DNA from: Candidatus Omnitrophota bacterium
GTDB lineage: Bacteria; Omnitrophota; Gorgyraeia; Duberdicusellales; 4484-171
DNA: 64,000 bases
Direction: 5' to 3'
NCBI GenBank assembly: GCA_043815445.1
Contig: JBDRIY010000058.1
Location: 16,403-80,402 of the forward strand
Part shown: positions 15,018 through 64,000 of the stretch, one piece after another
Position numbering within the stretch: the stretch's first letter is position 1
Layout of the letters: every line of letters begins with the position of its first letter
Made by a program: the position numbers and the translations under genes
Notes under the pieces: generated by a model
Told to the model about the DNA's origin: nothing
The model's database searches: none
What the model saw: the letters and a program-made list of their open reading frames with translations, nothing else

Positions 15018-15020
15018 CCC

Positions 15021-30100: not shown

Positions 30101-30101
30101 C

Positions 30102-30833: not shown

Positions 30834-30859
30834 TTCTCTTTTTTAATAAGTTCAAGTTT

Positions 30860-43795: not shown

Positions 43796-44029
43796 ATGGA
43801 TAATAAAATAATAGAAAAAATTGAAGACATTGAAGATAGAATTGAAAGTATTAAATGGCTGATTAACGCGCGTTCTTTTGCCGATAAATCTCATATTTCT
43901 GCCACCATTAACATAATAAGAGAAAGCGGAGGAATTTTGAATAAAAATTGCCTCAAAGGAACTACTTTCGAAAATAGAATCCGCCGAGCATGGAAAACTA
44001 ACTTCTCCAAAAGGACAAAATACTCCTGA
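43796..44029 (+). CDS. Putative VapB-like antitoxin (77 aa), upstream partner of the PIN toxin.
   Basis: ORF with its stop 3 nt before the vapC start. MDNKIIEKIEDIEDRIESIKWLINARSFADKSH... I recognise no specific family. The assignment is by position. Confidence 0.45.
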   Translation: MDNKIIEKIEDIEDRIESIKWLINARSFADKSHISATINIIRESGGILNKNCLKGTTFENRIRRAWKTNFSKRTKYS

Positions 44030-44032
44030 TTT

Positions 44033-44407
44033 ATGCGTTATCTTATAGATACGAATATTATTATCGACCACTTGCGTGGAGATAAAAGTGTTACTTCCTT
44101 TTTGGAAAAGATAGAGAATAAAAAATCTCAAGCGAGTATATCTGTTATCACTGAATACGAACTTCTTATTTATCCTCCGCTTACTTCCCAGCAAGAAAAA
44201 GAAATTATTTCTTTTATAAATATTTTTGCTGTCCTTAATATTACCTCTTCCATTGTTAGAATCGCTGTTCGTTTTAGAAAAAAGTATAATACTGATATAA
44301 TAGATTCCCTTATCGCCGCTACAGCTCATAAAAATAAATCCATCCTTATCACCCGCAATATTAAACATTTTAAGAATATCAAAGAAATCCAAATTGAAAC
44401 CATTTAG
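44033..44407 (+). CDS. vapC: VapC-type PIN-domain toxin.
   Basis: MRYLIDTNIIIDHLRGDKS...IIDSLIAATAHKNKSILITRNIKHF has the classic VapC PIN acidic residues (D6, E, D, D). It ends with TAG at 44405-44407. Confidence 0.75.
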   Translation: MRYLIDTNIIIDHLRGDKSVTSFLEKIENKKSQASISVITEYELLIYPPLTSQQEKEIISFINIFAVLNITSSIVRIAVRFRKKYNTDIIDSLIAATAHKNKSILITRNIKHFKNIKEIQIETI

Positions 44408-44439
44408 TAAAATTCCGAATAATTGAGAGATGCTCTCTT

Positions 44440-47400
44440 GAGTTGACTCTTTACCAAATTCTTCCTTACTAAAATTAGACGAGGTATTATGATCTATCTT
44501 GAGGTTATTTAGAAAAGATTGAGGGGGGATGTCAAAACCATAATTATTATAAAAATTAAAACAAATAACTAAAACAATTATCCCGAAAGCAGCCAGCCAA
44601 GCTACCCGGCCAAACGATAATGCTGACACTCCCGGCTCCGCCAACCCCGTCTCCCCCCAAGCTAAACCAGAAAACCCAAAAACGCCGATAATACTTGCTA
44701 ACAAGGTGAGTTTTACAATAAGTTTAAGTTTATGCAGAATAGAAGAGTTTTTATGATGGGTATAAAAGAAAAGGAAAAGAACTAAACTTAAAACAACCAG
44801 CGGCGGGGCAAGGATTTGATATGAGCTTACAATGGGAAATTTTGGCAAAAATTGAAAATTTGGTAATGAAGTAACTAATCCTATAGGGGTAATTAAAGCA
44901 AGGTTTTTGTTTACAGAAGAGCTGGATATTTTGTTATTAATCTTTTGAGATGAAAGCTCTGTTAACTTGTAAAGCTCTTCCTGCTGGACGCTATTTAGAT
45001 TCTCTGAATATAAAGCTATCAACTTATTCGACCAGCGACCTTTATAAAGCGCTATGCATAATTTAAGTAAATTTCCTTCCGGGGGATAGTTAGGAAAAAT
45101 CTTTTTGCCTGGAAATGTTTTTACCCGAAGATATTTAATGTCTTTCAAAGGAACTAAACTGCTATAATTATACCAATCGCGGCCTTGGTCGTATTTTGAA
45201 TATTCTATAACCTCTCCTTCCCTTTTTAACCTCTTAAATATTACCAGATAGCCAGGTATAGCTAATCTAATAGGTTTATTTATTTGAATTACTTTCTTAT
45301 GGTCAAATACTCTCGTGTAATAAGCTAAGATCGCTGTGCCTATGCCCTTTCGACTGCAATCAATATCACCTTCATTTAGATGCATTCTAGTAATTTCTAT
45401 AGAAGAACCCACAATTCCAGAAGTAACATACCCCACATATAAAGGATGTACACCATAAAAAATCTTATGACGATTATAGTTCTTGTTTTGTATCGTAATT
45501 TTATTGCCATATTCCATATTAAGCGTGCCGTTTGAATGATATTCTTCACGATTTATAATGTGTGCCTTATCCCAAGGGTTTTTAGGCAAAGCAGGGGTAA
45601 ATAAAACACTCTTCCATAGTTTCTCCTTAATAGCCGCTTCTATCTCAAATGCATAATCTATATCCGGACAACTCTTAACAGCCTTTAAAGTACTTAGGCA
45701 TTCATCTCTTAATTTTCCTAAAGTTTCTATCAAACCGGAAATATCTTTCTTTACACACTGCCCGATAAACATCACATCCCGCCCATCATTAGTGACAGTT
45801 ATTTTAGAAAGGCTAACATCGACAGGTATATAACCGTCATTGGACTGCCAAGTATTAATTAGTTCCTCAGCAGTCATCCTCACCAGTCTTTTCCTTTCTG
45901 CCTTAATTTGTTCTGGAGTCTGGCTGGCTGGCCAAGTATGAAACTGTTCTTCTAGGGTCAGTCCCGTTAACGCCTGTGGTTGCCTCTCTGTTACTCCCCC
46001 TCTACTAATATTTAAAACAGAAAAAACCAATTTTCCGCATAAAATATCTAATATCTTCTTTTTTATTTTGTTATTAGTCGCAGTATCTTCATTTAAGCTA
46101 TGCGCATATTCTTCCTCTATTACGTCTAAAAAATTACTGTAGTATTTCCCAAAAGCCCAAAGCCCTCCAACAACACCGCTAAGTTTGAAGCGGGAAGAAA
46201 AACTGGAAGGATTGGTAGAAAGGTGTTTAACGAAGAAAAATACGAAAAACAAAAACAATATAAACCCTATAACAAGAGGCGGAGCAAGGGTTTGATACCA
46301 ACTCACAACAGGAAATTTTGGTAAAAATTGAAGGGTTGGGAATAAGAAAGATAATTCTCTATAATTATCACCAATCAAAGCTTTCGAGTCCACTTTAGCG
46401 GCAGTTTCTTTAATTCGAGTTTTCATTTCTAAAAGCACGGAACGGGTAAGATTAAAAAAGAGGCTTTGAGCTAAATGTTGAACAGAGACAGCAGAATTTA
46501 TTATTAAAGAATATGCTTGAACATATTCGGTATTTATCTCGGCAGGAACGCGATAATTAGAATCGGCCAGCGAAGACTGGACAAAATCATAAACCTCTTT
46601 CAGGTAATCAGGCGAAACTTTGAATAGTTGACCCAGATTATAAATATCAAGTTTAGGAATATAACTACCATCAGCCTGTTTATTTACATAATCCTGATAC
46701 TGTACTGCCGCAATCAACCCATTTATCTCATAACCAAGAGCAAGGTACATTAAAAAATCAGCATAAAATTTTGCTTGTTGCTTTATTCCTCTTACCAACG
46801 TGCTATCCGCGCTTATTAATACGGATGCTTGTTCAAGGCTTAAAGCTCGCTGCTTTAATCCTTTTATTATCGCGATATCCACAGCCCTTGCCTCGGCTTC
46901 GCTGAATCCCATTGCATGTCTAAACTCATGCGCCGCGTACATAATAATATCTGCTGCTGTCGCGATGTTTGCCGCGTATAAAGTGTTTCCTTCAAATCTA
47001 AACGCCGGGGAAAGAGCAGCATTTCCTCTAAGCATCAAACTAACATAAGGAACTACCTCAATATTTATATCCCTACCCACAGCTTTACTAAATACCCCTT
47101 TTATAAAGCCTAAAGTACTACCCTTGCCTCTAGCTACTTCGCCTAATGTTCTCTGAAACGAAAATCCAATATTATCTATACGTAAACTCAAGCTGTTATA
47201 AAATTCTCTGGCGCTAGGTGAATCAAGGCCCATACTAACCAGCTCGTTATTTAAAAAATCGCGGAAAATACTATCTGCTTGTTCTAATTGCTCTTGAGGA
47301 ACTCGGCCTTTAACGATAATCTTTATACTTATGCCTGACGGTAATTCTCCATCCCTGAAAAAACCTAATGACCTAATAGAACTTACCCACCTCAACCAAA

Positions 47401-50400
47401 TATTATCTGTAGTCAAGTTAAATTCTTCATCCGCTATCTTTAAAGCAACAAAAATTTCAGCTCCATACTTGAGCTGATTACCTAAAAAAATCATCTTTTC
47501 TAACGGCCTTTTATGAACTATGTAGCGTGTTGTAACTGTTTCTTCATAAACGTTTTCCTTTTCCACTATCCTTTTTTTATCAACCCACTCATTATGCGCT
47601 TCTGCCAATGCCTGAAGCTGACAGCGGAATTCTTCGGAAATTCTCTGCTCTGCTTTGATCTCAAAAAGATTTATCTTTTTCACTTCCCTTGTTGATAATA
47701 AATCACGCATAATAATATTACTTTCTGGGTGGAAAAAATAACCAAAAGGACTAGAAGAATGTTTAAGCAACAGGAGGAATTTGATAAGGAAAATGATTGA
47801 AACAAATATAACAAACAGCACAACCAAGCCAGTCCCTGCGCGGATAGGATTGGCAAAAAAGATAAACTGTAAAAACCGGTTATGCTTATTCCCTTCATCT
47901 TCTTTAACAAACATATATTTATCTTCTACCCGCCAGGATTTATAAGCTATTTTATTCTTACGGATAAGGCTAAGAAAAACATCAACGATCTCCCCATCAA
48001 ACTGTTTTCCGCTTTTATCTTCTAAAACAGAAATTGCTTTCCTCTCCGACAATCCTTGTTTATAAACCCTTTCTGAAGTAAGCGCGTCAAATACATCCGC
48101 GACAGCTAAAATCCGCGCGACTAACGGAATATTCTCGCCTTTTAACCCTGAAGAATACCCTTCGCCGTCATATGATTCATGATGGTACTCAGCGCCATTA
48201 TACAATATCTTTAAAAATTCATCTTTACCCTCAATATCCCCTCCGTTAATAACCGAAAAAATAACTTCAAGGCTTTTCCTGTCCATTTCTAATAATTCTA
48301 CCCCATACTCCGTATGTCTTTTCATGATAATAAATTCTACCTCAATTAAACAACCCAATTTCATAATAATCTTCTTGGTAATACGAAGCTTTCCAATATC
48401 ATGCAGCCATCCCGCCATCTCGATTGCTTTTATCTGCCCATAGGGCAAGCCCGAAGCAACAGCAATATTTCGGCTATAATAGGCAACTCGTTCGGAATGC
48501 CGCTTAGTATAAATATCCATACTTTTCAAATATCCCGACAATACCTCCAGCGCCTCTTGATACCTTTCTTTTAAATCTCCTTCCAGAAAGCTTAGATGGT
48601 TAAAAAAACACTCTTTCATCCCATAAATTTTAATTTCCTCACTAAGACTTTTCACTTTACACTTCAACTCCCTTAGATTTTTCAACTGATAACCCGTATC
48701 AATAAACACTGGCGTTGACCTTACCGGCGCGGCCTTAAGAAACACAAAATGATGTTCTTTAGGCAAAAGCATTCTTTTACGGATTTTTTCATCGGCGTAA
48801 ATACAAATAGAGTTATCATTCTTCTTTTTATCAGCCAAATATAATTTTATCCGTTCACTAAACGGCACAAAACCAAATTCCATAAGCATTTTTATAAATA
48901 CGGGGTGGTAAACTACAGCTGTATCTCTAAACTTAAACTGCCTCAAAAACCGGGAATCTTTTATAGTCAATAAAAACGCGGCGAATAAATATTCAGACAA
49001 CCCCTTTCCCTGATAATCATCAAATACTTCAAATGTATTAAGCTTTAATTCTTTGCCGGACAAACAAATTTCAACTTCTAACGCCATCTGCCTGTTTTTC
49101 ATATCCATAAATTCCAATAAATATAACTCACAATAAGGCAATGAAAAGACCGGTCTTAATGAAAACTTAAATTTATAACCTAAAAATTCAACTTTTCCCC
49201 GTAAAGACAAAATGCCTTTATGATTAGTTTTGAAAATACTGGCTAACCGAAAGGCTATTTTATGCCGTAAGCAGTTTAACCAGGAATAACTATTTTTCAG
49301 CAGACAAGAAGAAAAACTGGAAAGATTGGAAGAATGTTTACGAGAAAGAAGGAATTTGATAAGGAGAACGATTAAAATAAATAACACAAACGCCCCCGTC
49401 CCCGCGCGGATAGGATGGCCGACGAAGCCGAAATAGAGAATTTTTTGCAGAGAAAAGTTGGTGTTAGATAAGCTGGGGAAGAATAGAATAGCAGTTAAGC
49501 TATTCTTAGAATTCACTATATTATCCCGCAATCCTGAAGTTTTATCTATCTTACGAAATAATACGCCATCAATACGAAGTCTACACTGTACGTCTTGTTT
49601 AGTTTCTACCCCCGCGCAAATGTTAACGATATCCGGGATTAAGTTCCAGATTGAAATAATATCCTCACTATGTTCTCTTTCTTTATCCGCAAGTTCCTCT
49701 CTCAAAACAGCAATATTTCCTTTCTTTTTATTGAAAATATCTAATATTTCATTCTTATCTTTGTCTAAAATGCTTAAAAGACAGCCTCGACAAAGTTCAG
49801 AATTTTCAAAATCAATGGGAAATCTACTAAGAATGTGATCTTTAAGGTAAGATTTGCTAATCCCCATGCTGATCGCGACTTGTTCACGATTATCTTTAAG
49901 CAAGTAATAGCGTTTTATGATCTCAATAATAATTCTCTCCTTGATATCAAAATAAATAATTATATCTACTATATTTTTTCTTTTTGCGTAGGGCAAATAG
50001 GCCTTAAGCAGCTTCTTTAAATTACCTAAGTTAAACCCCTGATATGAATGTTCCCAGATATCCAATGCCTTGAATTTAACGACTTTCTGAAAATAATCTT
50101 CTGTGAGCGCGCCGAATTTCTTTTTCTCATCAGCTTTATTTTCTATTTCCTTAATAACAATACCTAAATCCTCAGAAATCCCAAGTATCCTTTCTGACCG
50201 CTCAATACAGAACCATTTACAAACAGCTTCAAGCTCTCTATTATAAAACTGAAGTACTTCGTGAAATATCTGGTTAAACTGCTTTGCGAAACCTAACGCT
50301 TTTATTTTTCCTCCGTCTGAAAAGTTTTCAAGCGCCGGGATTTCTTTTGTATAAAACTCTAATAAACCAGGTAAATCCAATGTTGCATCTATTGCCAAAA

Positions 50401-53400
50401 CAACCTTTCCATCTTTATAAAACTTCTCCATTATCAAAGAAATCTCAGCAAGCAGCCCTTTAAGCCATTCTCCTCTGCGCACTGTAAGATGCCATCTTAC
50501 AATAGGCCTTTTTTTCACTTTATTATCTAATCCGTTTAAAATTAAAAACGCGTTATTAAAATCATGCTGTTTCATAAACTCTTGTGCTTCTATCATTGCT
50601 TCACATATCGCAATCTCTTTTTTTATAGCAAGATCGAGTTCTTCCTGATGAAATTCGTCTAAAATATCTTTTGCCTTATAAAACGCGCCTATTCTAATAT
50701 ATTCTTCCGCGTTCGCTTGTTTTTCTTCTCTTTTTTCTACTTCTTTATCATCTCCATACCACTCTCCCCAGGGATATAAAACCAACATCAAACCCGCCGG
50801 AATCAACAAAACCTTGGTAATCGAAATTTCTCCCCCTACTCCCAAACAAAACAAAACCAACCCCAACACCGCGACAGCCCCTGCTTCTTCTTTATACCTC
50901 CCTACCTTGCTCAATTTATCTTTATCTAAATATCTCATAACAAAAAATATAATTACCCCTAATAGCACCATACCCGAAACTGCGATAAAAAAACCTATGC
51001 CATTAATAATTTTCTTATCAGGATATGGCTGAATATTATTGTTGGGCATTTTGCCTAAATAACCAAGCTTAGCAACGCATATATTATGTATGAAATATAT
51101 CTCATCCTGTACCTGACTGCCGCCAATCTCAATAAGCCTATTTTTTACTATAGTAATATCTTTACTACACTTTAAATAGTCCTTATTTAAACCTTGTTTT
51201 TTCGCTCTCACTAACCTCTCACTGCGAACAAGAAAAGCCAGGGTAAAATAAAATACTCTATATTCTTTAGCCCTATCTTCTTCCCGCGTTTTTTCTTGCG
51301 GGCTAAAAAGAATATTTTGAATAATTTCAATCATTTTTCTCTTATAAAAATCCTCCTTGATTTGTCTTTGCTTAATATCTAAACTGCTGAGAAAGCTTAA
51401 AAGAAACTGAGTATTTTTTTCATTTAAAAATATTGCTGATACTTTTTCCAAAGGCTGGTTACGCAAATTATCTATAAGATTAATCTTCTTTAAGCGTAAA
51501 ATATAGTTAATCTGTTCCGGCTCTAATAAGACGGCGCCGCCATCTTTAAACTCTAAAAAAGCATTACGCGGGTAAAGCCCAAGATAAAATCCGCTTAAGC
51601 TGCAATATTGAGCCAAACACTTTGATAAACCACACAGAAGCTGAATTCGGATAATTCTGCTTACTATAAGATTTTTACTGGTTTTCCCTAAAGTATTCTC
51701 ATTCTTCTGACATATTACCGGCTGTAATACTTCAGGCCCAAAAACTTTATCCATATCCCTATTTTGCCGCCTAAACATAAAACACATCGCCATAAACATA
51801 ACCGCGAAAATTAGTATAGAAATAACCAGAGGCGTTCTCAATAATACAGCTATATTAACAGAGTTGAGCTGAACTTCTTTGGAGCTCTTTTTTCCCGATT
51901 CCGCGCCGAGAATCAAGCCTTTTCTCACTGGAATATTAACCGTCCAATTATCTAAGCTTAAGCCTTTTAGAAAAGAAGTATCCAATTGATTTTTTATAGC
52001 ATAAATATATAATTTCAGACATATTCTTTGAAATTCGTAAGTTTCTACAGGGGCTTTTAATATTTCACATAATGGCTTAAGGCCTCGTGAAATTAAATTC
52101 TCAATGCTGTGTTGGATGAAATCCTCATCAACCACCTTAATTCTTTCTTGGGGCAAGATCTCCTGGGCAACTAACAGTGTGAACTCGGCAATCTTTTCCA
52201 TTACCTCCAAAGCTCTCGAATTTTGCTCCGAGGCCCCTTTCTTCACAACCAGAAACTCCTCAGAAATATGCTCCAGAAAATCTTGAAGAATCACAAAAAG
52301 ACACTTCCAATAATAGGATTCTAAATTAAAAAACCTTTTATGAAGTTTTATACGCATTGACTCTGCAGAAATTGAGATTGATTTTTCTGCAGAAACAAGA
52401 AACGTAAAATCACGAGCATAGTTAACCGTCTTACTATTTCTTTCCTCAATAATCTTATTTATCCGAAACAGCAAAATCTTCTTCAAATCTCTTTGAATAG
52501 GGTAAACAGAATTAACCGCTCCCATAATCTTGATAATTTTCCTTATATCAAACACCTCTTTTTCTTCTTTGGTTAGACAATCCTCGGTGAACTGAATCAG
52601 TTCTTTTTTAAACTTTTCATAATCATCTAACTCCCCGTTTTTAAGGCGTTTAGGGAGAATTTCATTAAAATAACCTTCTAAACTACTCTTCCGAGATCGC
52701 TGTCTTATCGCCATCTCAATAACTAAACGATTATAATATTCAGAAGCACAGCTAAAACCTTTTTCTCGTAACTCTCCAATATACACGCTGACCTTGATTT
52801 CTTCCTCAGCTAAAATATCTAAGAAGCTATATCTCACATCCTTTTGAGTATGCGCAGAGCTTTCCCTATCATCACCGCTTAGAATATGGCAAACATCATG
52901 AACCAGCCCTACTTGAGCGAATATCCGGCAAGCTACGGAATTGTCAAAATAATTTCTTAAAATAAATATTACGTTGTGTTCGCGGGAAGGAATTTGGATG
53001 GCGTAAGGGGAAGACTCAGGAATTGTATCTACCCCAATAACTCTAATTTCTCTTTGTTCTTTTATTTTAAACCGCGACTGAGCCTCAGCCAACAAAGCTC
53101 CATAATCACTATCAGATAAAAAGCTTAAACTCTCATCCACGGATAAGCTCACTTCCCCCTGCTTTATTTCCTTAAATTTAATACTCTCATCATTAATTAT
53201 TGCCTGCGCCCCTTGCTTCTCACCCCGCTGAAAATCCTCACCAATCTTTGTATGCCCCTGCCGCAACTCAGAAGCTTCAAAAGGAACACTAATTTGTTGA
53301 GCCTCAGCCAGCATAAACCCTCCAGTCTCAGGATTAATTTCAATCATAGGATTCTCAAAAGCCTTTATTATTTCTATAAATCTATCAAGCCATTCTACCA

Positions 53401-56400: not shown

Positions 56401-59400
56401 TAAGCACGCCTGCTTTGCTTAATTCCTTAAGTAGTGCTTGAATGGTTGGCGATACTGTTTCCGGAATATCAAGACAAACTACAGGAACCCTTCCTTTATC
56501 CGCGATTTCCTTTATTTTCGGCCTAAGCTTATCCCGATAAACATAAAAATGACTGCCTAACTTATCCCAATGCCCACCGCTTCGCCACCAGCCTCGGTAA
56601 TAACACAAATACAAATTAAACACATTAATCTCCGGGTCCAATAATTCCGCTTCCCATACTCCGGGCTTAACTTCTTTAAAAGGAACAAGATAAATCCTAT
56701 TCTTATCCCACTCCCCATTCTCATCCTCAACCCCAGCATAAGCAAATATCGGATACCTGCCGGGATATTTTGCTTCTAAAGCCTTTTGGGTAACCTGAAT
56801 ACACAGGCACTGCCCTATCTTAGCTGTAAAAAATTCACTATCTCTATGCTCAACGTAGCACCAATCAAACAATTCTCCTTTTACCGGAGCCGAAACTTCT
56901 TCACGCTTGCATCTTAACTTTTGAATCGTTTTCCGCTGAGACTTTCCATTATGGCTAAGAATAATTTCTAAGGTTTTCTTTAAAAACTCTTCCCCTTTCC
57001 ACGGCCTAAAACAAGGATAGTCAGATAACAAAATAACAAGTTCAGCTGTATCCTCCGAGCTAAGCCCTAAGAAACCAGCTAACTCTTCATCCATCTCATC
57101 CTGGCTATTTGACTTTAAAAGTATTTCTTGATACCCCTGTATTTTTTCATCCCATATCCACAAGGCCCTTCCATTATTCGTAATAAAAAATAAAATATGG
57201 ATCTCATTGTTAGTAAATTGAGAAATAAAATTCGCTGATTCTTCAAGATTTTCACAATTTATTTTTATTCCGAATAATGGTAAATTGGATTTATCGATTT
57301 TCTTAGATAAACCTCCTATAAAATTATCGTAATTAATTTTATTAAAATACTCCTTTTCAATCACTAATATAGGAACGCGCCCTTGTTTTAAAAACTTTTT
57401 AAATTCTGACTTATATTTTCCCAAATTTTTTTGCTGTTCTTCTAAATACTCCTGTTCTCCTTGGATAATAAAAACACGGGCATCGTAAGGATCCAGTTCA
57501 ACATAAATTCCTTTTTCTTTAATATCACACCCCTTCCATTCATAATTTCCATTATAAAAAATATCTTTTAAATGATATGTTTGATTGGGGTCTAATTGCC
57601 CGTTAGGATAAATTCTTCCCGACTGTGTTTTCTCGGACATATTGATTATTATTAAGGCTCGGCCTTCTTTGCCATATCTTGTAAATGCTAAAAGACTGGG
57701 GTTTTCCGGGTTAAGAACGAATAATCTTCCTAATCGCAGCGCCGGGTATGAAGCTATCTTCATTATTTTCAAATACAAATCTTCTTTTTCAACGTCCGCT
57801 GTTTCACCTTCAGCAAATACTTGCTGAATAGCAATCTTATTCTTATACCCTTTTGCCTGAAGGTCATATATAAAAGGTATCCCCGCGATTGTTGCTATAA
57901 GCACAGCCGCGGCTTTCTCAAAATCTCCCAACCAGCAAGCGGGATTTTCATCGTGGTTCTGAAGATAATGAATAAGTTTATTTAATACTTCCGGGGGGGT
58001 TCCAATGAGATAATTTTTAATTGCCGCCGCATCTTCTTCTCCCTTTTTAAACTTAGCTAAAAGGTCGAGAAGGCGTTTCTGATAAACAAATACACGGGGA
58101 TGCAATAAAGGAAGATAATGTTCTACGCTATCGCCATAGGCCTCCTTTAATAAAATCATATCCGGGTACTCCCTTAAAACATCGGAAACCACATCACTCC
58201 AAAAATCCTCTTCTACCGGCCATAGCTTATCAAATTCTTCCCAGGGCATCTGAGGATACCAGTTTTTCTTAAACTCCATCCGGGTTACCAAGTTTGACAT
58301 ATCACATCTTAAATTAATATTTCTTTGAGCCCAAAATCTTATGGTTTGTTTCATATAATATCGGGTATATTCTTTCGTATAATTTAACTGAACCGTGTCT
58401 GTCCACCCGTCAAAATAAGGGTCTCGGCCATGAGCCATTAAAATTCTGCTCTTTTTATCACCTGGAGTTCTATAGAATACAAAATAATGGTGTAAAGGGT
58501 ATCTTCCGCCCTTTTCTTTATTCTCATACCAAGGGTTATATTTATCTAAAAGTTCTTTATCGCTAAGATTCAAATCTTCAGAATTAAGAAATTTATGTAT
58601 AATACAATCCCAGTGTTGGATAATCCAAGGGTCATCAATCCCCATATGGTTAGAAGTAAAATCTATAAAAAATCTCACACCTTGACTCTTATATTTTTTT
58701 GCAAGATTCTCTAACTCCTTGTTTTTCCCCCAGTCAAGATTAATCCCCCTTAAATAGCAAGGAGCGAACGGACTGCCCTGATAATCCTTTTCTCCTTTCC
58801 ATTCCTGACGGATAAACATCCGTTTTTCACCGGTTTTTTCATCCCTTACTGTATAAAAAGGCGTATTTTCATCTTCTTTACTTCGCTGGCCCCGGCTCAT
58901 TATATAAGCAGTATTTCCAATAGGCAGAAGCCCTGTTAAATAGATATTTTTAGAATACTTTCTAATAATGCCGGGTAATTCTTTTTTAAGATATGAAATG
59001 CCGCCTAATTTGAATTTACCGTTGATTTTTTGCGTGCCCAACACCCGGGCGTTAATCTGAAAAATAGGGCTTCTGATAAATTCATTTCTCACTTCCTTGG
59101 AGAGTTTTGTGGGAAGGAATAGTTCTAAAACATATCTTTCTACCATATTCTTAACATATAAAACCTTTGATTCTTTATATATTTTATGACGAAGGTTTAT
59201 CCAGCGCTTATCTCCGTTATTTATCCAATTATAATATAAATTCGATATCACCTTCAAAGCGTTATATAATCCTATCTGATTGTTGCCTTCAATAAAAAAT
59301 CCGTTACCAAAACCTGTTTCCGGATTATACTGGCGCAAATATTCTAAAGGCCCGCCGTCTTTTGAAGCCACAATCACATTTGCATTCTCAAAAGCCCGCA

Positions 59401-62400
59401 TTCCGCTGGTTCCACAAGCCTCCTCGGGAGGCCGCGGCATCTCCAGCCAGCTATCAGCTCCCGCGGCAACTTTTTTCATCAACTCTACGTCATTACCGGA
59501 TATAAATACAAACCTTCCTTTAAAAGCGGGATTCCGCATCCAACTAATAAATTCCTTTATCCAAAAGCATAATTCCTCATTAAAAGGATCTGTAGTTATT
59601 CCTCCGATAACAATAGTCATTTCTAATCCTTCTATTTCTACATCTTTACCATCAACCTTTACCCAATTCTTAACACCCTTATCCTGACATAATGCCCAAA
59701 CAATATCTTTTAACATAGGATATTGCTGTTTATAATTAGCTATTCTTCTAACAGCGACAGCTATATGCCTATTTATACCTAAATCAAGGTGAAGATCATT
59801 ATCAGGATCCAAGCCTGTATCTTCCTTGATCCTTCTTTTAATTAACTCAATCATTTCCTGTTTGTCGTTCTGATGAACATCCCAAAGTTTTTCCGGAGTT
59901 ATCTTCCCTTTCCTTCTTTCCAAAGCAACCAAAATATCGCTTTTCCAGAATTCACCGCTTCCATTCATTATTCCGTGAATCTTTCCGGCAAATTCAGGAA
60001 ACATCCTCTTAAGAACCTGAGCGTGTTTTTTGCTTACGCCGTTAACAATATCCGCCAAAGCCATAGCTGCCCGGGAAAAATCCAAATCTTCTCCTCTTAC
60101 AAAAATATCTTTATATTTTTCTAACAGCCCCAGGCGCCCAAACCAGTGGCCTTTACCATGGTATATTTGAAGGCCGGCAGTAACAGGAGTATGATTAGTA
60201 AAAGAATAAGTAACGCCTTTAAAATAAGAGTCATCTCTCATTGTGGGCATAGCTATGACTGTATGGGCCTCATTCAAGCGTAAAATTGATGGTTTAATGC
60301 CGAACTTTTTCAATATTTCAGGCACAGCTTTACCAATTAAAACCTGCTGGGTTAATCTTTGGGCTTGGTCATCAGTATAAAGAATATCGTTTATCTCCTG
60401 ACAGGCTAACAAAAATGCCGGCGTTCCTCCCCGGCTGGTTACATATACAGCAATATGAAAATCTCTAAATTGCCCTTTACTTTGATCAAAAAGGCTTACT
60501 GTAATTTTAATTTCCTTTCCATTTTCATCAGTTACAACTTTTATAGGAAACCGCTTATTGATTTCCAATTCCGGATATTTTAATTTCTTATTATTAATTA
60601 AAGTATGATAATCAACTTTATTTTCAAAATCAATAAGCTCTCTATATTCTACAAACACCCTCTTAAGCCATTGCGATTTTTCTCCTATATTAGTTTTAGG
60701 CTCAAGCCGTTTCTCATACATCGGCATAATAATAAAAGCTTTAACCCCTGCTTTAGCGTAGCCCTCACCAGTATCACCTTCTAAAATACCTAACCCGCCT
60801 TTAGCGCTTTGATTAGCATATTTCAATAATTCTACTAACAGCGCCTCCATAGAAACATCTATTATCGGCCCGCCTAACTTCTCTAACTTCCTCAACCAAG
60901 CCTTCTTGCTGATTTTCGGCGTCAGATACCCTGGCTGTTTATCTTCTACTTCTGTTTCCGTAAAAAAGGAAAATAGGACATAGAAGATGAGTATTAACAA
61001 TGCTATATTTAAAGAACCTGGTATCACCACGCATAAAAGAGAATCTTGAACTCCTGTTGAAAGGCCATTACCTTTAACTATCTTATACCCTGATCCAATA
61101 CCGGAAGCCTGCCAAAGATAAGTATGTTCTAAGGACTCAATAATATTCATCTCAATAGAATCTTCCTTCTTGTCCATGTTCTGGCTAACATAACTAAACC
61201 CGTTAAAGTTAAGAACTTGATACTTCTGTTCTACCTTTGATTTAAAGCAAATAGCCCTGCTGTTCGGAGTCCGGCGCGTAAAATTACTTTTAGAATTCGC
61301 GGTAAACTGAAGGATTAATTTATTCTCATCAGCGGATGATAAGTGCTGGTCAAAATCAGCATGAAAAATGCCCGGGACAGCGGCATCTTGCCGAGCGAAA
61401 ATCACGTCACTAAAATCATTGTTCTTAAACCCTTCCCGAACCCTTTTATTGATTTCTTCAACAATTTTATACAAGAAATTAGTGTCTATGTTTTTAAGCT
61501 CTAACTCATCAAATGAAATATTAGCCAAATTCTCTAAAATAAAAGGCAGTATCCCTCCATTCACAACAATTCTATCGCCTAATACACAAGCAGCAACCAG
61601 CCGTCTTTCAAGAACATCATCTTTTATCCCCATGGCTAAATTTAAATATCGCGAATAATTCTCTGGTTCAACCACTGACCTATACAATTCAAGCTTATGA
61701 TCTCCCAAAAGCGTAATAACCTTTCCTCCTGCTTCCTCTACTGCTATCCGCAAAGTTTTTAGGTAAAAATATAATTCTTCCTCCTCTATACATTCACCCA
61801 TAAAAATAAGTTCCCCGTCTTCCCCTGTCCAAACATCGCTCTGCCAAGTATCACCCTTATCTATATACTTCAGCTCCGTCAAAACGCGCCTAACCTCTTT
61901 TAAGTTAAGAGCGTCGGCGCCAAAAACTGTAACCTTTCTTATATCTATAGGGTGGCAATAATGTTCAATTACCTGCTGAACAGTATTATGATTTTTTGCT
62001 AACTCAGTTTTTTCTAACGCTTTATTAACCTGATTGATTCTCTTATTTGTATACTCACTGGTGCTGCGTTTTTTCTTTATATAACAATCCTGTTCTGAAT
62101 CTATCTCTACATTAAAACAAAACGTCGCTAAGCCATCTAAACAAACTTTCCCCAAATCAAAAAGATGAGCACTGCCCTGGTAATTCCTTTCAAACCCTCT
62201 AATGCCGTCAGAAACTCCGTAAATAGGCGCGTTTTTATAAACACACTGCTTATTTAATTTAAATGTTACTTTAGTGTGAGAAACAGCATCCTCAATAACA
62301 ATGCTATCTATCTCTCCAACAGTTAAAGAATCCAAATCTTGAGGCATAGAATAAACCCTGCCATTAATACGTACCTTTATAAAATCGCCAATATGAGTAA

Positions 62401-64000
62401 GCATAAGAATGTTCGCCAAAACACAATTAAAATCTAACTGGCCGTTAGTAAGATTAGTAAAAGAAAACTTACACTTCATTTTCCCATTTTCTAAAAATCT
62501 TAACTGCTTACAAACCATTAATCTATCTTCCATAGTAGAATAACGCGCTTCATATCCACCATTTTTAGAAAAGGCTAATTCTCCGCGTAATTCCAATTCC
62601 TCCATATCAAAATTACCCTTTATAAAATCTGGCCCGGTAATATTTTTACGCGAAATAATTGGCTGGCATAAAAACGGCAGGCCGAATATCTGCCCTAAAC
62701 TTCTACCCTGCGGGGGTATATACTTTAATATATCCCGCGGATTTTTACTACCTATGGTATCAAGGTTAATCCTGGGTGAGGCCGCCGGCCGGCCGCCGGG
62801 CGCGGCTGTGCCAGATGTTTGAGGAGAAAAATCTTTCTCCTCCATATACCTAACGGCTTGCTCTACATCACTATATTTGGCATCATTATGAGGATAAAGA
62901 AACCATTCATCTATAGGAAGAAAAGATTTAGACACAGGGTTTTGACGCCCCCTATCTCCCTTAGGCTGCCAAAAAATAATGTTTCCTTGACTATTAATAA
63001 TCACCCACTGATTATTGTAAGAATCCGTAACAAACCTGCCGCTAAATCTATAGGGGCCGGAAATTTCTTCTCTATTACTAATTTCAATTCCAGCTTCTTC
63101 CATAAGATGCAAGACAGTGCTGAAGGAACTAAATACATAATCGCGAAAATGAGGAAACATCAGCCCCCCGAATTTACCGTGGAAAAGATGGCAGGAGCAT
63201 AACCCGCTAATCAACGTAACCTCGGCAATCCGCGCTAATTCACTATCAGATTCCTTTAATCTTTCAGTTACAAACCGCGAAAAACCAAGCACAAAATCAA
63301 GAAAAACATACTTCTTAACCTGGCCAACATATCCTCTTTCTACCAGATTTAGATATAAAAATCTTTCATCCTTAGTAAGACTTTTCCACCCTTTAGCCTC
63401 TATTTTTCGGGTCAAAATCTCAAACTGTTCCCTTTCTTCAGGAGTAAGCGACCACCAGGAAAATTCAGCGTAAGACCCGCCGGAAACAGTACGTAACCGG
63501 ATTGGTTTAATATCTTTGAGAAATCCGCTGATTAATTCAGTTTGGATAACGGCGGCTTTGTTCTTAGGGTCAACCGCCTTGGCAAAATTATCCATCCATC
63601 CGCCAGGCTTATAACAATAATCATAGTTATCCCCCCAATCTTTACTACCGGCTTTACTGTAGTCATCAGCATAAACAATAACCGGTATCTGTGGATTAAG
63701 GCGCGATATTATTTTATTAAATCTCTTGACTAAATTTTTGCTTCCTAAACCTTTATCCTTAGCAGACATTTTAGAAAGGATTTCCTCTGCCCTTTTTAAA
63801 TCCTTTTTATGCTTACTTTTAAACTTTTCAATTTTATCTTTAGCAAAATCCTCTAATGCCTTAACTTCAGAAAAGGGTATTATCTGCCTCAAGAAATAAG
63901 ATCCTCTTACTACCTTAAATTCCGGGCAAGCCCGCGTAGTAAACACAACATCTTCATCACGAATATCAATACCCAATTTCCAGGCTGTCCAGTCAAAAAT
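44440..64000 (-). CDS. Minus-strand coding continues to the window end as one giant phase-2 ORF or several. The recognisable domains, from 3' to 5', are a conserved module like those of 30860-43669, an HExxH metalloprotease motif, an HD-GYP phosphodiesterase domain, a GNAT acetyltransferase, a TM-linked helical region, a second GNAT plus HD-like segment, a GH13-like alpha-amylase catalytic segment, two HAD-like phosphatase segments, a GT35 alpha-glucan phosphorylase, and an N-terminal region of unknown fold. It is partial at the 5' end (off-window).
   Basis: The phase-2 codons were checked at HEFRHAMGF (46919-46945) and LHKLKL (44721-44738). Recurrent TM linkers HPIRAGTG(A/L)(F/V)VLF are at ~49400 and ~47820. 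I translated by eye and did not verify continuity across the whole span, so several same-strand genes are possible. Confidence 0.35.
46919..46945 (-). other. Zinc-metalloprotease HExxH motif (HEFRHAMGF).
   Basis: Reverse-complement translation, phase 2. Confidence 0.45.
47980..48520 (-). other. HD-GYP phosphodiesterase-like domain (HDIGK ... HHESYDGEGYSSGLKGENIPL).
   Basis: The HD motif is encoded at ~48391-48410 and the HHExxDGxGY(P) motif at ~48150-48190. This matches the c-di-GMP HD-GYP family signature. Confidence 0.5.
58630..58680 (-). other. GH13-like alpha-amylase catalytic-region motif (VRFFIDFTSNHMGIDDPW).
   Basis: Reverse-complement translation. It resembles GH13 conserved region I (xxVILDxVxNH). 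Confidence 0.35.
59300..60900 (-). other. GT35 alpha-glucan (glycogen/maltodextrin) phosphorylase-like domain with Lys replaced by Arg at the PLP site.
   Basis: GGLGILEGDTGE (~60770-60797), FTNHTPV and LNEAH motifs, and WLEMPRPPEEACGTSGMRAFENANV (59391-59450), were all verified by explicit reverse complement. Canonical GT35 has E-A-S-G-T-x-x-M-K. Confidence 0.55.

What the first reader, a model, noticed from the sequence alone, without database searches (positions are those of the whole stretch)
44440..64000. Signalling, protease and glycan-metabolism domains apparently strung on one TM-linked minus-strand frame
Translating the minus strand from the window end down to ~44440 gives, in order, a GT35 phosphorylase, HAD-like and GH13-like segments, GNAT plus HD-like segments, another GNAT followed by an HD-GYP, an HExxH protease motif, and a module homologous to those of the 30.9-43.7 kb ORF. 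Identical TM linker peptides (HPIRAGTG..VLF) separate these blocks at 49400 and 47820. If it is one ORF of more than 19 kb, it is a polyprotein-like giant gene. If not, it is a tight operon of membrane-tethered enzymes that share recombining linker sequences.
Basis: inference. Interest (0 to 1): 0.65.

Follow-up and report, generated by a model that had tools for sequence, protein, structure and literature searches.

The report
Giant gene with nested toxin-antitoxin operons
The flagged 19.5 kb is a small part of one uninterrupted reading frame covering the whole 64-kb window, a giant membrane-anchored multi-enzyme gene of the kind known from Omnitrophota bacteria, and this frame stays open even where ten small toxin-antitoxin-type cassettes are encoded on the opposite strand inside it.

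Summary
The single-frame claim is confirmed and understated. Minus-strand frame 0 has no stop codon in all 64,000 nt (21,333 codons, open at both ends). The other five frames have 878-2,438 stops each. Real domains lie along it: GH57-like, GT35/GT5-like, GH13, HD-GYP, two radical SAM, M24, SAM-methyltransferase and GNAT, with about 41 hydrophobic helices. Repertoire and closest homologues (56-57% identity, Candidatus Omnitrophota MAGs) place it with the published Omnitrophota giant multi-enzyme proteins, a known kind.

Complete + strand toxin-antitoxin operons sit there, antisense inside the giant frame. The window holds 18 such nested genes in ten cassettes (PIN_3, VapC, MazF, HicAB, BrnA and others), most with their own Shine-Dalgarno sites and several with near-consensus promoters.

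Their codon usage is shaped to keep the giant frame open. TTA/CTA/TCA occur 0 times in 911 codons of codon-aligned genes and 62 times in 760 codons of offset genes. Resampling expects about 41 antisense stops; none are seen. The arrangement recurs in four other loci: three Omnitrophota MAG contigs and one Planctomycetales contig. I found no description of it in the papers searched.

Several reader details fail: the linkers are not identical, and the upstream GNAT, HD-like and protease calls have no family support.

The parts
2..64000 (-). Single stop-free reading frame of 21,333 codons, open at both window ends (giant ORF). Amino acid i corresponds to window coordinate 64000-3(i-1).
   Evidence: Zero stops against 878-2,438 in each of the other frames. 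Uniform codon usage. Pfam domains in this frame from 419 to 63271. About 41 hydrophobic TM-like segments.
62162..63271 (-). GH57-like alpha-amylase/4-alpha-glucanotransferase middle and C-terminal domains (aa 244-613).
   Evidence: PF09095 E = 1.8e-9 (above the gathering score); PF09094 E = 2.6e-4 (below it).
59117..60577 (-). GT35/GT5-like alpha-glucan phosphorylase-family domain (aa 1142-1628). The PLP-binding Lys is replaced by Arg (EACGTSGMR).
   Evidence: TIGR02094 E = 2.4e-36, profile 65-598 of 600, below the curated cutoff. PF08323 and PF00343. PDB 9l6i. K->R also in 16 of 19 relatives. Relatives at 50-57% identity.
57812..58747 (-). GH13 alpha-amylase catalytic domain (aa 1752-2063), followed by a weak Malt_amylase_C match.
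   Evidence: PF00128 E = 4.5e-14. PF16657 E = 0.004. Relatives at 38-53% identity.
54707..56752 (-). Two tandem units of about 300-380 aa (aa 2417-2716 and 2717-3098), 29-30% identical to each other, with a weak HAD sugar-phosphatase-like signal.
   Evidence: Self-BLAST E = 7e-26. S6PP E = 0.14 and TIGR02471 E = 0.01. The AlphaFold model is unusable, pLDDT 41.
49309..49420 (-). TM 'linker' 1: ...HPIRAGTGAFVLFILIVLLIKFLLSRKHSS...
   Evidence: 77% nucleotide identity to linker 2 over 83 nt (repeat family D15).
47734..47845 (-). TM 'linker' 2: ...NPIRAGTGLVVLFVIFVSIIFLIKFLLLLKHSS...
   Evidence: Similar to linker 1 but not identical.
47987..48532 (-). HD-GYP-type phosphodiesterase domain (aa 5157-5338). 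HDIGK and HHE..DG.GY are intact; GYP reads GYS.
   Evidence: PF13487 E = 7e-26. PDB 4mcw E = 4e-27. Motifs read from the sequence.
46916..46930 (-). HEFRH, the only HExxH in the flagged region (aa 5691-5695).
   Evidence: No protease family support (best is Peptidase_M8, E = 0.21).
44690..46024 (-). Repeat module copy A (aa 5993-6437). Contains a GNAT-like R-x-x-G-x-G motif and ends in an 'APPLV..LFFY' TM helix.
   Evidence: 50-54% identical to copies B and C. No Pfam hit. AlphaFold model pLDDT 42.
41621..43450 (-). Repeat module copy B (aa 6851-7460), with an insertion of about 160 aa.
34430..35767 (-). Repeat module copy C (aa 9412-9857).
41078..41446 (-). Radical SAM domain 1 (aa 7519-7641), CxxxCxxC intact.
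   Evidence: PF04055 E = 4e-10. Motif at aa 7524.
33398..33880 (-). Radical SAM domain 2 (aa 10041-10201), CxxxCxxC intact.
   Evidence: PF04055 E = 2e-7. Motif at aa 10045.
20771..21244 (-). Peptidase_M24-like domain (aa 14253-14410).
   Evidence: PF00557 E = 1.4e-7.
4592..4897 (-). SAM-dependent methyltransferase domain (aa 19702-19803).
   Evidence: PF08241 E = 4e-14.
419..676 (-). GNAT acetyltransferase domain (aa 21109-21194).
   Evidence: PF00583 E = 6.5e-9.
43796..44407 (+). Nested antisense VapB-like (43796-44029) / VapC PIN (44033-44407) operon.
   Evidence: PF01850 E = 5e-17. SD GGAGA before the ATG; 0 antisense stops in the giant phase against 1-21 in the other phases. Promoter-like site at 43689-43717.
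30191..30833 (+). Nested antitoxin-like (30191-30439) / PIN_3 toxin (30411-30833) operon.
   Evidence: PF13470 E = 4.5e-19. SD AAGGAGG. Promoter TTGACA-17-TATAGT with TG at 30102-30130.
19686..20143 (+). Nested HicB (19686-19913) / HicA (19910-20143) operon.
   Evidence: PF15919 E = 1e-11 and PF07927 E = 5.5e-18. SD AAGGAGG. Promoter at 19632-19660.
14378..15017 (+). Nested antitoxin-like (14378-14629) / PIN_3 (14604-15017) operon.
   Evidence: PF13470 E = 2e-21, full-length profile match. SD and promoter at 14324-14352.
13667..14110 (+). Nested BrnT-like fragment (13667-13828) plus CopG/BrnA antitoxin (13832-14110).
   Evidence: PF12441 E = 1e-18, profile 1-79 of 79. The BrnT-like call rests on inspection of the sequence only. 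Promoter at 13784-13813.
12056..12629 (+). Nested AF2212-like antitoxin (12056-12277) / PemK-MazF toxin (12282-12629) operon.
   Evidence: PF01954 E = 1e-7 and PF02452 E = 1.6e-12, profile 1-108 of 109.
11087..11864 (+). Nested orphan antitoxin-like gene (11087-11338; 89% nucleotide identity to 30190-30426) and a 133-aa coiled-coil ORF (11463-11864).
   Evidence: SD AAGGAGG and promoter at 11409-11437 for the coiled-coil ORF.
5948..6380 (+). Nested antitoxin-like gene (5948-6190) plus a PIN_3 remnant with an in-frame internal deletion (6171-6380).
   Evidence: PF13470 E = 1e-8 for the N-terminal part. Alignment A2 shows about 70 codons deleted in frame.
1014..1642 (+). Nested DUF5678 (1014-1268) / retropepsin-like aspartyl protease (1250-1642) gene pair.
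   Evidence: PF18929 E = 2e-5 and PF13650 E = 1.6e-5, both above the gathering score.

Best explanation
Window 44440-64000 is an internal stretch of one giant protein-coding gene on the minus strand. The gene is at least 64 kb (at least 21,333 codons), and neither its start nor its stop lies in the window. It belongs to the class of giant, multi-pass membrane-anchored 'multi-enzyme' proteins described in Omnitrophota.

SHOWN. The frame is stop-free. It carries bona fide but divergent enzyme domains separated by hydrophobic helices (about 1 per 520 aa) and by diverged internal duplications. The flagged part encodes an alpha-glucan toolkit (GH57-like, GT35-like with the PLP-lysine replaced by Arg, GH13), orphan segments, an HD-GYP phosphodiesterase, and the first of three copies of a 450-600-aa module.

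INFERRED. The gene is transcribed and translated as one unit and inserted co-translationally, so that a fixed series of cofactor-dependent enzymes is tethered at the membrane. These enzymes need SAM, a 4Fe-4S cluster, acetyl-CoA or cyclic dinucleotides, which means most of the mass must face a cytoplasm.

THE 'GENE BOUNDARIES'.
- Shown: they have their own Shine-Dalgarno sites, start and stop codons and near-consensus promoters.
- Shown: their synonymous codon usage is constrained so that the antisense giant frame never meets a stop.
- Shown: for the antitoxin family that could be tested, the TA protein sequence is the one conserved there, while the giant frame is only kept open and yields F/S/L-rich spacer peptide.
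- Shown: the same arrangement, in the same two codon phases, recurs in four other loci (three Omnitrophota MAG contigs, one Planctomycetales contig).
- Inferred: any stop in the giant frame is strongly selected against, through loss of the downstream protein or transcriptional polarity, so only frame-preserving TA cassettes survive there.
- Speculative: the cassettes act as selfish residents, or as addiction modules that penalise deletions within the repeat-rich giant gene.
For: Single frame: 0 stops in 21,333 codons against 878-2,438 in the other frames. Uniform codon usage.

Real coding: Pfam, NCBIfam and PDB hits in this frame from 419 to 63271. Catalytic motifs are intact in the HD-GYP domain and both radical SAM domains.

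Kinship: an exhaustive HMMER search gives 2,520 hits. The best are at 50-57% identity, including MFH1645265.1 from a Candidatus Omnitrophota bacterium, and many lie inside 4-8 kaa proteins of Omnitrophota and Endomicrobiales MAGs. The Pfam repertoire (PF08323, PF08241, PF00583, PF04055, HD, glycoside hydrolases, peptidase) and the TM density match the published catalogues.

Nested genes: 11 of the 18 have Pfam matches above the gathering score, often over the full profile. SD motifs are present. The best promoter-like sites fall on the + strand just upstream of the cassettes.

Selection on the frame:
- Antisense stops in the giant phase are 0 in all 17 genes tested, against 1-21 per gene in the other two phases.
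- TTA/CTA/TCA codons: 0 of 911 in codon-aligned genes against 62 of 760 in offset genes. Leu TTA+CTA is 0 of 74 against 54 of 90.
- Synonymous resampling expects about 41 stops (minimum 24 in 2,000 draws), and the product of the per-gene P(0) values is about 1e-22.

Replication: L001, L002, L003 and L007 are all stop-free on the strand opposite the cassette. Antitoxins there have 0 of 320 such codons and PIN_3 genes 32 of 555. The phase relation is identical.

Which strand is conserved: changed codons are mostly synonymous on the TA strand and non-synonymous on the giant strand, e.g. 24 of 56 against 3 of 56.
Against: There is no expression, proteomic or read-level evidence for this sequence. 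Neither the source contig nor any identical protein was found in any collection.

Hallmarks reported for complete Omnitrophota giants are absent from the window, which lacks both gene ends: the SecA_DEAD-like domain, the N-terminal C39 peptidase and HEAT repeats.

Large parts have no detectable homologue; a 4,701-aa stretch returned no hit. Both AlphaFold models were of low confidence.

The hydropathy-based TM calls give an inconsistent sidedness for cofactor-dependent domains, so the topology is unresolved.

Nested cassettes are patchy. None was found in about 163 kb of nine other large ORFs.

A function for the nested TA cassettes is not shown.
Confidence: 0.82

Rival explanations
1. It is a tight operon of several ordinary genes for membrane-tethered enzymes, or several large genes separated by opposite-strand TA operons.
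For: In one related contig (L007) the annotation pipeline starts the giant gene just after a nested TA pair.
Against: There is no stop codon in the frame anywhere in 64 kb, including through all ten cassettes. The chance of this within the TA genes alone is about 1e-22. In L007 the frame is in fact open to the contig end, beneath the called TA pair.
Confidence: 0.02
2. It is an assembly artefact: a chimeric join or collapse at the repeated linkers and modules created an artificial long frame.
For: Repeated modules and linkers exist. No reads are available to check the joins.
Against: The repeats are diverged (65-89% nucleotide identity, the longest about 300 nt), which is too dissimilar to collapse. 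Random joins would preserve the frame only one time in three and would not remove stops. Codon usage is uniform. The same nested architecture is seen in independent assemblies from other projects.
Confidence: 0.03
3. The frame is kept open, but the product is not one working protein. Either it is a precursor cut into many enzymes (a true polyprotein), or uninterrupted translation is needed mainly to prevent Rho-type polarity on a very long transcript and much of the peptide is dispensable spacer.
For: Across the antitoxin copies the giant frame's amino-acid sequence is not conserved, only its openness. The peptides encoded there are F/S/L-rich and unlike the rest of the protein. Long orphan stretches exist. 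The literature notes C39 and S8 peptidase domains in complete giants that might process them.
Against: No protease family or recognisable cleavage sites were detected in the window. Many domains keep their catalytic motifs, so at least the domains are under protein-level selection. Published proteomics on V. archaeovorus reports peptides from its giant ORF but does not resolve processing.
Confidence: 0.13
4. The nested small ORFs are decaying relics of TA genes overrun by an expanding giant ORF and are no longer functional, so there is no real two-strand coding.
For: Some copies are visibly degraded: a PIN_3 with an in-frame internal deletion (6171-6380), an orphan antitoxin (11087-11338) and a BrnT-like fragment.
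Against: Most are full-length against their Pfam profiles, with intact start, stop and SD, and several have near-consensus promoters. Substitutions between antitoxin copies are biased towards synonymous changes on the TA strand. The antitoxin/PIN_3 pair is intact in four genomes.
Confidence: 0.1

Closest known systems
Omnitrophota giant multi-enzyme proteins: 'Archaeovorins' (West-Roberts et al. 2023, bioRxiv 10.1101/2023.11.21.568195) and the 'multi-enzyme metabolic cluster' class (Nielsen & Lui 2026, bioRxiv 10.64898/2026.06.07.730766). Type example: the 39,678-aa ORF of Velamenicoccus archaeovorus LiM.
   Same: A single ORF of tens of kilobases. Many TM helices at about 2% of residues. Divergent enzyme domains tiled along the chain (GT5/starch-synthase-like, glycoside hydrolases, SAM methyltransferases, GNAT, radical SAM, HD, peptidase). 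Diverged internal duplications. Most of the sequence is orphan. The closest homologues come from Omnitrophota MAGs.
   Different: Both gene ends lie outside the window, so total length, signal peptide, the C39 peptidase and the SecA_DEAD-like domain cannot be assessed, and none was found in the 21,333 aa present. No HEAT or TPR repeats were detected. Ten opposite-strand TA-type cassettes are nested inside the ORF, a feature mentioned by neither these papers nor Seymour et al. 2023.
Type II toxin-antitoxin operons (VapBC/PIN, MazEF/PemK, HicAB, BrnTA), and TA cassettes that stabilise chromosomal arrays such as superintegrons (the latter from general knowledge, not tested here).
   Same: Two small co-oriented, translationally coupled genes with their own SD and promoter. 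The toxins match PIN, PIN_3, PemK and HicA over the full profile. They occur at high density in a repeat-rich, deletion-prone stretch of DNA.
   Different: They are not intergenic. Each lies wholly inside, and antisense to, a much larger ORF. Their synonymous codon choice is subordinated to keeping that ORF open (0 of 911 against 62 of 760 for TTA/CTA/TCA). One antitoxin family has no Pfam model, and in GTDB representatives it was found only in this nested context.
Embedded antisense overlapping genes proposed in E. coli and other bacteria (e.g. bioRxiv 10.1101/2020.11.18.388249).
   Same: A protein-coding ORF fully embedded antisense within another protein-coding ORF.
   Different: In those cases the embedded ORFs are mostly novel, short and of debated function. 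Here the embedded genes belong to well-known families (whole two-gene operons, about 250-780 nt per cassette), the host is a giant ORF, and the signature of selection (phase-specific codon avoidance, replicated across genomes) is explicit.
Alpha-glucan family phosphorylases (GT35; TIGR02094; PDB 9l6i).
   Same: A near full-length profile match (positions 65-598 of 600) and a conserved EA[SC]GTSG signature.
   Different: The score is below the curated family cutoff (125.7 against 191.7 bits). The PLP-binding Lys is Arg here and in 16 of 19 relatives. The domain is embedded in a giant chain and is not a free-standing enzyme.

Membership tests
Omnitrophota giant multi-enzyme membrane proteins (Archaeovorin / multi-enzyme metabolic cluster class) | A single ORF of at least 10,000 aa ('large') or at least 30,000 aa ('giant'). 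| tested here: met
   At least 21,333 codons without a stop, open at both ends. This meets the 10-kaa criterion. The 30-kaa criterion cannot be decided because the window truncates the gene.
Omnitrophota giant multi-enzyme membrane proteins (Archaeovorin / multi-enzyme metabolic cluster class) | Numerous transmembrane helices along the chain (about 2% of residues). | tested here: met
   41 segments with Kyte-Doolittle hydropathy of at least 1.8 over 19 aa, about 1 per 520 aa or roughly 3.7% of residues. This is a hydropathy scan only, not DeepTMHMM, and a few segments lie in antisense-TA peptide.
Omnitrophota giant multi-enzyme membrane proteins (Archaeovorin / multi-enzyme metabolic cluster class) | Domain repertoire: GT5/starch-synthase-like, glycoside hydrolases, SAM methyltransferases, GNAT, radical SAM, HD, peptidases. 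| tested here: met
   PF08323, PF00128, PF09095, PF08241, PF00583, PF04055 (twice), PF13487 and PF00557, against the lists.
Omnitrophota giant multi-enzyme membrane proteins (Archaeovorin / multi-enzyme metabolic cluster class) | A divergent SecA_DEAD-like domain, an N-terminal C39 or S8 peptidase, and HEAT repeats. | tested here: inconclusive
   None was detected in the 21,333 aa present. Both ends of the gene lie outside the window, and these features are not universal.
Omnitrophota giant multi-enzyme membrane proteins (Archaeovorin / multi-enzyme metabolic cluster class) | Encoded in an Omnitrophota genome. | tested here: inconclusive
   The window contains no marker gene, rRNA or tRNA. The best homologues (56-57% identity) and two of the three relatives of the nested antitoxin family are from Candidatus Omnitrophota MAGs. 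More distant relatives are in Endomicrobiales and Planctomycetales.
Type II toxin-antitoxin systems (the nested + strand cassettes) | Two adjacent small co-oriented genes, one matching a known toxin family. | tested here: met
   PIN_3 (two full-length copies plus one fragment), PIN/VapC, PemK/MazF and HicA toxins with upstream or adjacent partners (HicB, AF2212-like, CopG/BrnA, and a novel antitoxin family). Gene overlaps or gaps range from about -32 to +5 nt.
Type II toxin-antitoxin systems (the nested + strand cassettes) | The toxin is toxic and is neutralised by the cognate antitoxin. | not testable with these tools
   This needs cloning and expression.
   There is one HExxH motif in the flagged region and two in the whole frame, with no protease family match there. 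The M24 domain at aa 14253 is an aminopeptidase fold, not a processing protease. No recurrent cleavage motif was identified.
GT35 alpha-glucan phosphorylase | The PLP-binding lysine in the EASGTSxMK signature. | tested here: not met
   The window reads EACGTSGMR, while solved 9l6i reads EASGTSGEK at the aligned position. 16 of 19 relatives also have R.
HD-GYP phosphodiesterase | The HD...HHE...D metal ligands and the GYP motif. | tested here: met
   HDIGK and HHESYDGEGY are present. The last motif reads GYS instead of GYP. HD_5 E = 7e-26 and PDB 4mcw E = 4e-27.
Radical SAM superfamily | The CxxxCxxC cluster-binding motif. | tested here: met
   CGNLCIWC at aa 7524 and CSVDCAYC at aa 10045, both within the PF04055 matches.

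The most novel reading that the evidence does not exclude
Complete toxin-antitoxin operons are adapted residents of giant genes. They function as addiction modules, or antisense regulators, that police the integrity or expression of a huge, repeat-rich and deletion-prone gene. At least one antitoxin/PIN_3 lineage would then be specialised for this niche across PVC-group phyla, and standard gene callers would hide the phenomenon systematically by suppressing ORFs nested in longer ones.
Probability: 0.3. Interest if true: 0.85.

Novelty: new variant of a known kind. Interest (0 to 1): 0.7.

Why it matters
The giant gene itself adds one more divergent member to a class already catalogued in Omnitrophota.

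The unexpected part is that a 64-kb reading frame is kept open straight through at least ten opposite-strand cassettes from unrelated families, by phase-specific codon avoidance in those genes. This gives sequence-level evidence, with no need for proteomics, that uninterrupted translation of these giant frames is under strong selection. That bears on the open question of whether such ORFs are really read end to end.

It also provides an unusually clear, replicated case of long antisense overlap between genes of known families in bacteria. It suggests that TA systems may stabilise or exploit giant genes.

Finally, it shows that annotation pipelines either hide the nested genes or truncate the giant ORF at them, as in L007. 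Both errors would bias published length and content statistics.

Tried and rejected
- Table-11 ORF listing showed almost no long ORFs, which at first suggested a recoded genetic code. That was rejected once the stop map showed a frame running off both window ends.
- Full-length self-BLAST gave no off-diagonal hits; chunked BLAST was needed.
- Searches for the source genome or for relatives of repeat module A1 found nothing in GTDB representatives, IMG/VR or JGI metagenomes.
- The second metagenome scan, with the antitoxin alignment, found nothing.
- Word-indexed protein searches were uninformative: only HD-GYP hits for aa 4801-6520, and nothing for aa 12700-17400 or aa 1-4900, even though exhaustive HMMER finds relatives at 56% identity.
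- Exact look-ups of the nested MazF and VapC proteins were not on record.
- Both AlphaFold jobs (module A1 and the HAD-like unit) gave pLDDT of about 41-42, so no fold searches were run.
- Rfam and tRNA scans found nothing.
- The GC-rich repeat D18 has no RNA-structure signal, z about -1.
- The six-frame codon-model profile was only partly informative, because stops dominate the score.
- I considered that the unused third phase is much harder to solve with synonymous codons. A by-hand check of forbidden dipeptides did not clearly support this, so it is not claimed.
- Composition screening and phmmer of antisense ORFs in about 187 kb of other large ORFs found only the L007 pair.

Full report
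1. THE OBSERVATION

A stop-codon map of all six frames shows that the minus-strand frame beginning at base 64000 contains no TAA, TAG or TGA anywhere in the window. That is 21,333 codons, open at both ends. The other five frames contain 878 to 2,438 stops each. The tool's ORF list had looked nearly empty only because ORFs running off the window are not listed.

Codon usage is homogeneous along the frame. The correlation between 8-kb blocks is 0.88-0.97, against 0.43-0.59 for the +1 frame. The amino-acid composition is protein-like.

2. WHAT THE FLAGGED PART ENCODES

Amino acid i corresponds to window coordinate 64000-3(i-1). From the window end downwards:

- A GH57-like alpha-amylase/4-alpha-glucanotransferase region at aa 244-613.
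- One hydrophobic helix at aa 988-1006.
- A GT35/GT5-like alpha-glucan-phosphorylase-family domain at aa 1142-1628. Support: TIGR02094 E = 2e-36 over profile positions 65-598 of 600, though below the curated cutoff, plus Pfam Glyco_transf_5 and Phosphorylase and PDB 9l6i.
- A GH13 catalytic domain at aa 1752-2063.
- Two tandem units of about 300-380 aa at aa 2417-3098, with only a weak HAD sugar-phosphatase signal.
- About 1,700 aa of orphan sequence broken by five helices.
- An HD-GYP domain at aa 5157-5338 (HD_5 E = 7e-26; PDB 4mcw E = 4e-27).
- A lone HEFRH motif at aa 5691.
- A module at aa 5993-6437 that recurs at aa 6851-7460 and aa 9412-9857 with 50-54% identity.

The HAD call is weak. 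The upstream GNAT, HD-like and protease calls have no family support.

The 'identical' linkers are only about half identical. They share PIRAGTG...LIKFLL..KHSS, and HPIRAGTG occurs once. At the nucleotide level they are 77% identical over 83 nt.

Two details of the domains are worth recording. In the GT35-like domain the PLP-binding lysine is arginine (EACGTSGMR, against GTSGEK in 9l6i). The same is true in 16 of 19 relatives, so this is a conserved non-canonical clade. In the HD-GYP domain the metal ligands are intact, but GYP reads GYS.

3. THE REST OF THE FRAME

Downstream in the same frame lie two radical SAM domains with intact CxxxCxxC motifs, an M24 peptidase fold, a SAM methyltransferase and a GNAT. 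A hydropathy scan finds 41 TM-like segments, about one per 520 aa.

All internal repeats are diverged: 30-60% amino-acid and 65-89% nucleotide identity, with the longest about 300 nt. This argues against recent recombination between 'linkers' and against assembly collapse.

4. WHAT KIND OF THING IT IS

Word-indexed searches and contig scans did not find the source sequence or close relatives. An exhaustive HMMER search with aa 1000-2199 found 2,520 relatives. The best are at 50-57% identity, including a protein annotated 'glycogen/starch synthase, partial [Candidatus Omnitrophota bacterium]'. Many lie inside 4-8 kaa proteins of Omnitrophota and Endomicrobiales MAGs. Homology is confined to single domains that sit at different positions in each protein, so these proteins are mosaics and not collinear orthologues.

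Published descriptions match. West-Roberts et al. describe Omnitrophota ORFs of up to 85,804 aa with many TM helices and GT5, methyltransferase, glycoside hydrolase, peptidase and GNAT domains. Nielsen & Lui list PF08323, PF08241, PF00583, PF04055, HAD and HD as the most recurrent families. They define a 'multi-enzyme metabolic cluster' class and find diverged repeats and about 2% TM residues.

The giant gene is therefore a new, very divergent member of a known kind. The SecA_DEAD-like, C39 and HEAT features reported for many complete giants are not in the window, but both gene ends are missing.

5. THE UNEXPECTED FEATURE

Direct-repeat families on the + strand read like ribosome-binding sites followed by ATG, and like a PIN-toxin motif. 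Listing + strand ORFs and scanning them shows 18 small genes in ten cassettes, all antisense inside the giant frame:

- DUF5678 / retropepsin-like protease (1014-1642).
- Antitoxin-like gene / PIN_3 remnant (5948-6380).
- An orphan antitoxin-like gene (11087-11338).
- A coiled-coil ORF (11463-11864).
- AF2212-like / MazF (12056-12629).
- BrnT-like fragment / BrnA (13667-14110).
- Antitoxin-like gene / PIN_3 (14378-15017).
- HicB / HicA (19686-20143).
- Antitoxin-like gene / PIN_3 (30191-30833).
- VapB-like / VapC (43796-44407).

Eleven of the 18 have Pfam matches above the gathering score, often over the full profile (for example PemK 1-108 of 109 and PIN_3 1-115 of 115). Most first genes have AAGGAGG-type SD motifs. 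The best sigma-70-like matches in the scanned stretches lie on the + strand just upstream of the cassettes, for example TTGACA-17-TATATT at 19632-19660 before hicB and TTGACA-17-TATAGT at 30102-30130.

No nested gene lies inside 44440-64000.

6. EVIDENCE THAT THE GIANT FRAME IS KEPT OPEN BY SELECTION

In every one of the 17 nested genes tested, the giant phase has 0 antisense stops, while the other two antisense phases have 1-21.

A built-in control is available. For genes whose codons are aligned with the giant codons, antisense stops correspond to the sense codons TTA, CTA and TCA. These occur 0 times in 911 codons of the ten aligned genes. They occur 62 times in 760 codons (8.2%) of the seven genes offset by one base. 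For leucine, TTA+CTA is 0 of 74 against 54 of 90. For serine, TCA is 0 of 61 against 8 of 47.

Resampling synonymous codons from the pooled usage is conservative, because that pool is already depleted. It still expects about 41 stops (minimum 24 in 2,000 draws), and the product of the per-gene probabilities of zero is about 1e-22.

Between copies of the codon-aligned antitoxin, changed codons are mostly synonymous on the TA strand and non-synonymous on the giant strand, for example 24 of 56 against 3 of 56. So in that family the TA protein is the conserved product, and the giant frame is only kept stop-free. The giant-frame peptide across all ten cassettes is F/S/L/I-rich, with F at 11-24% (7% across HicBA) against 6% overall.

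Decay of nested genes also respects the frame. The PIN_3 remnant at 6171-6380 has lost about 70 codons in frame.

7. REPLICATION ELSEWHERE

The antitoxin family has no Pfam model. Among 185,579 GTDB species representatives it has three relatives, two in Candidatus Omnitrophota MAGs and one in a Planctomycetales MAG.

In all three, the antitoxin/PIN_3 operon lies opposite a frame that is stop-free over the entire held locus: 3,562, 4,081 and 14,769 nt. Those frames carry PPDK_N, HATPase_c plus TPR, and M48 plus TPR domains.

The phase relation is the same as in the four window cassettes. The antitoxin is codon-aligned, with 0 of 320 TTA/CTA/TCA codons. PIN_3 is offset so that the third codon positions of both strands coincide, with 32 of 555 such codons and no antisense stop in the host phase.

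In a further Omnitrophota MAG contig (L007), a DUF433/DUF5615 pair is called on the opposite strand 'upstream' of a 7,695-aa gene. The giant frame in fact runs through it to the contig end, with 0 stops in that phase against 7-9 in the others, and uses the same two phases. There the annotation has truncated the giant ORF at a nested cassette.

Nested cassettes are not universal. None was convincing in about 163 kb of nine other large ORFs.

8. MECHANISM, WITH SHOWN AND INFERRED STEPS SEPARATED

Shown:
- One uninterrupted frame with real domains and hydrophobic helices.
- Complete opposite-strand operons with their own signals.
- Phase-specific codon avoidance, replicated in other genomes.

Inferred:
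- The gene is translated end to end, because only translation or its termination can 'see' stops in one phase.
- A stop would be costly, either through loss of everything downstream or through polarity on a very long transcript. Only cassettes that leave the frame open, on arrival or after a few synonymous changes, persist.
- Antisense orientation is permissive, because the nested genes' own stop codons read as Leu or Ser on the host strand.
- Most catalytic domains need cytoplasmic cofactors (SAM, Fe-S cluster and reductant, acetyl-CoA, cyclic dinucleotides). The bulk therefore probably faces a cytoplasm, consistent with the 'TM-only' architecture predicted for 46% of long Omnitrophota proteins. 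My hydropathy-based helix count does not give a self-consistent topology, so this remains open.

Speculative: the cassettes are selfish residents of a large, insertion-tolerant target, or they serve as addiction modules that penalise deletions in a repeat-rich gene. Antisense transcription from their promoters could also modulate giant-gene expression.

9. RIVALS

- Separate genes or an operon are excluded by the absence of stops.
- Assembly chimerism is unlikely, given diverged repeats, uniform codon usage and recurrence in independent assemblies, but it cannot be formally excluded without reads.
- Proteolytic processing (a true polyprotein), or a frame maintained mainly to sustain translation, remains possible and is compatible with the data on the antisense-TA segments.
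- The idea that the nested genes are dead relics is contradicted for most copies by intact signals, full-length profile matches and TA-strand purifying selection, although a few copies are visibly decaying.

10. NOVELTY AND SCORE

The giant ORF is a new member of a known kind. I found no mention of nested or antisense genes inside giant ORFs in the two giant-gene preprints, in Seymour et al. 2023, or in four full-text searches. That covers only the held library.

I therefore rate the whole as a new variant of a known kind, with interest 0.7. The evidence for selection on the frame is strong and replicated, but it is entirely computational, and the function of the nested cassettes is unknown.

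Noticed in passing
window 1014-44407 (+ strand), ten cassettes: Eighteen small + strand genes, mostly type II toxin-antitoxin pairs (PIN_3, VapC, MazF, HicAB, BrnA and others), lie antisense inside the stop-free giant frame. They avoid the codons that would read as stops on the other strand.
   Followed up: yes
L001 (WFRI01000001.1), L002 (DOMD01000112.1), L003 (CAYING010000002.1), L007 (JAMWDE010000001.1): The same nested antisense architecture occurs in three Omnitrophota MAG contigs and one Planctomycetales MAG contig. In L007 the annotated giant gene starts at 591, just after a called DUF433/DUF5615 pair, although the frame is open to the contig end. Gene callers therefore either hide nested genes or truncate giant ORFs at them.
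   Followed up: yes
window nested genes; L001-L003, L007: All nested genes examined (about 28 genes in about 14 cassettes) use only two of the three possible phases relative to the host frame: codon-aligned, or offset so that both third positions coincide. The third phase is never used. I could not show that it is intrinsically harder to solve with synonymous codons.
   Followed up: partly
window 6171-6380, 11087-11338, 13667-13828: Decaying cassette members are present: a PIN_3 gene with an in-frame deletion of about 70 codons, an orphan antitoxin whose toxin is gone, and a BrnT-like fragment. The PIN_3 deletion is a multiple of three and so preserves the giant frame.
   Followed up: partly
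window about 59396-59422 (aa 1527-1535): In the GT35 signature the PLP-binding Lys is replaced by Arg (EACGTSGMR). The substitution is shared by 16 of 19 relatives, which points to a conserved clade that is probably not a canonical phosphorylase.
   Followed up: partly
window 47987-48532: The HD-GYP domain has intact HD and HHE..D ligands, but the GYP motif reads GYS.
   Followed up: no
window 11801-25903 (aa 12700-17400): A 4,701-aa stretch of the frame has no detectable homologue in the word-indexed search of 5.8 billion proteins. Part of it is peptide encoded antisense to TA genes, and the rest is orphan sequence with internal paralogues (aa 14881-15082 and 15682-15883, 40% identity).
   Followed up: partly
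window 274-323 and 17983-18032: A GC-rich 50-mer is repeated 17.7 kb apart in an AT-rich gene. It shows no RNA-structure signal (z about -1). In the giant frame it encodes a conserved RILPPAGP-type peptide motif.
   Followed up: partly
window 30839-30922, 38972-39055, 44711-44794; 25906-26017 and 44443-44554: Conserved stretches encoding TM helices ('APPLV..LFFY' and 'VAWLAAF..') lie next to the PIN_3 and VapBC cassettes. They also occur at sites without a cassette (about 39.0 and 26.0 kb). These may be empty or former insertion sites at module junctions.
   Followed up: no
L005 (JAQUUP010000018.1) 9801-10009: Two very long open frames (over 10 kb and over 23.7 kb) overlap by about 200 nt in different phases. 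This could be a frameshift, by sequencing error or genuine, that splits one giant ORF into proteins of 4,759 and 7,858 aa.
   Followed up: no
whole window: GC skew is negative on the + strand in every 2-kb bin, so the coding strand is G-rich throughout. GC content is about 37%.
   Followed up: no
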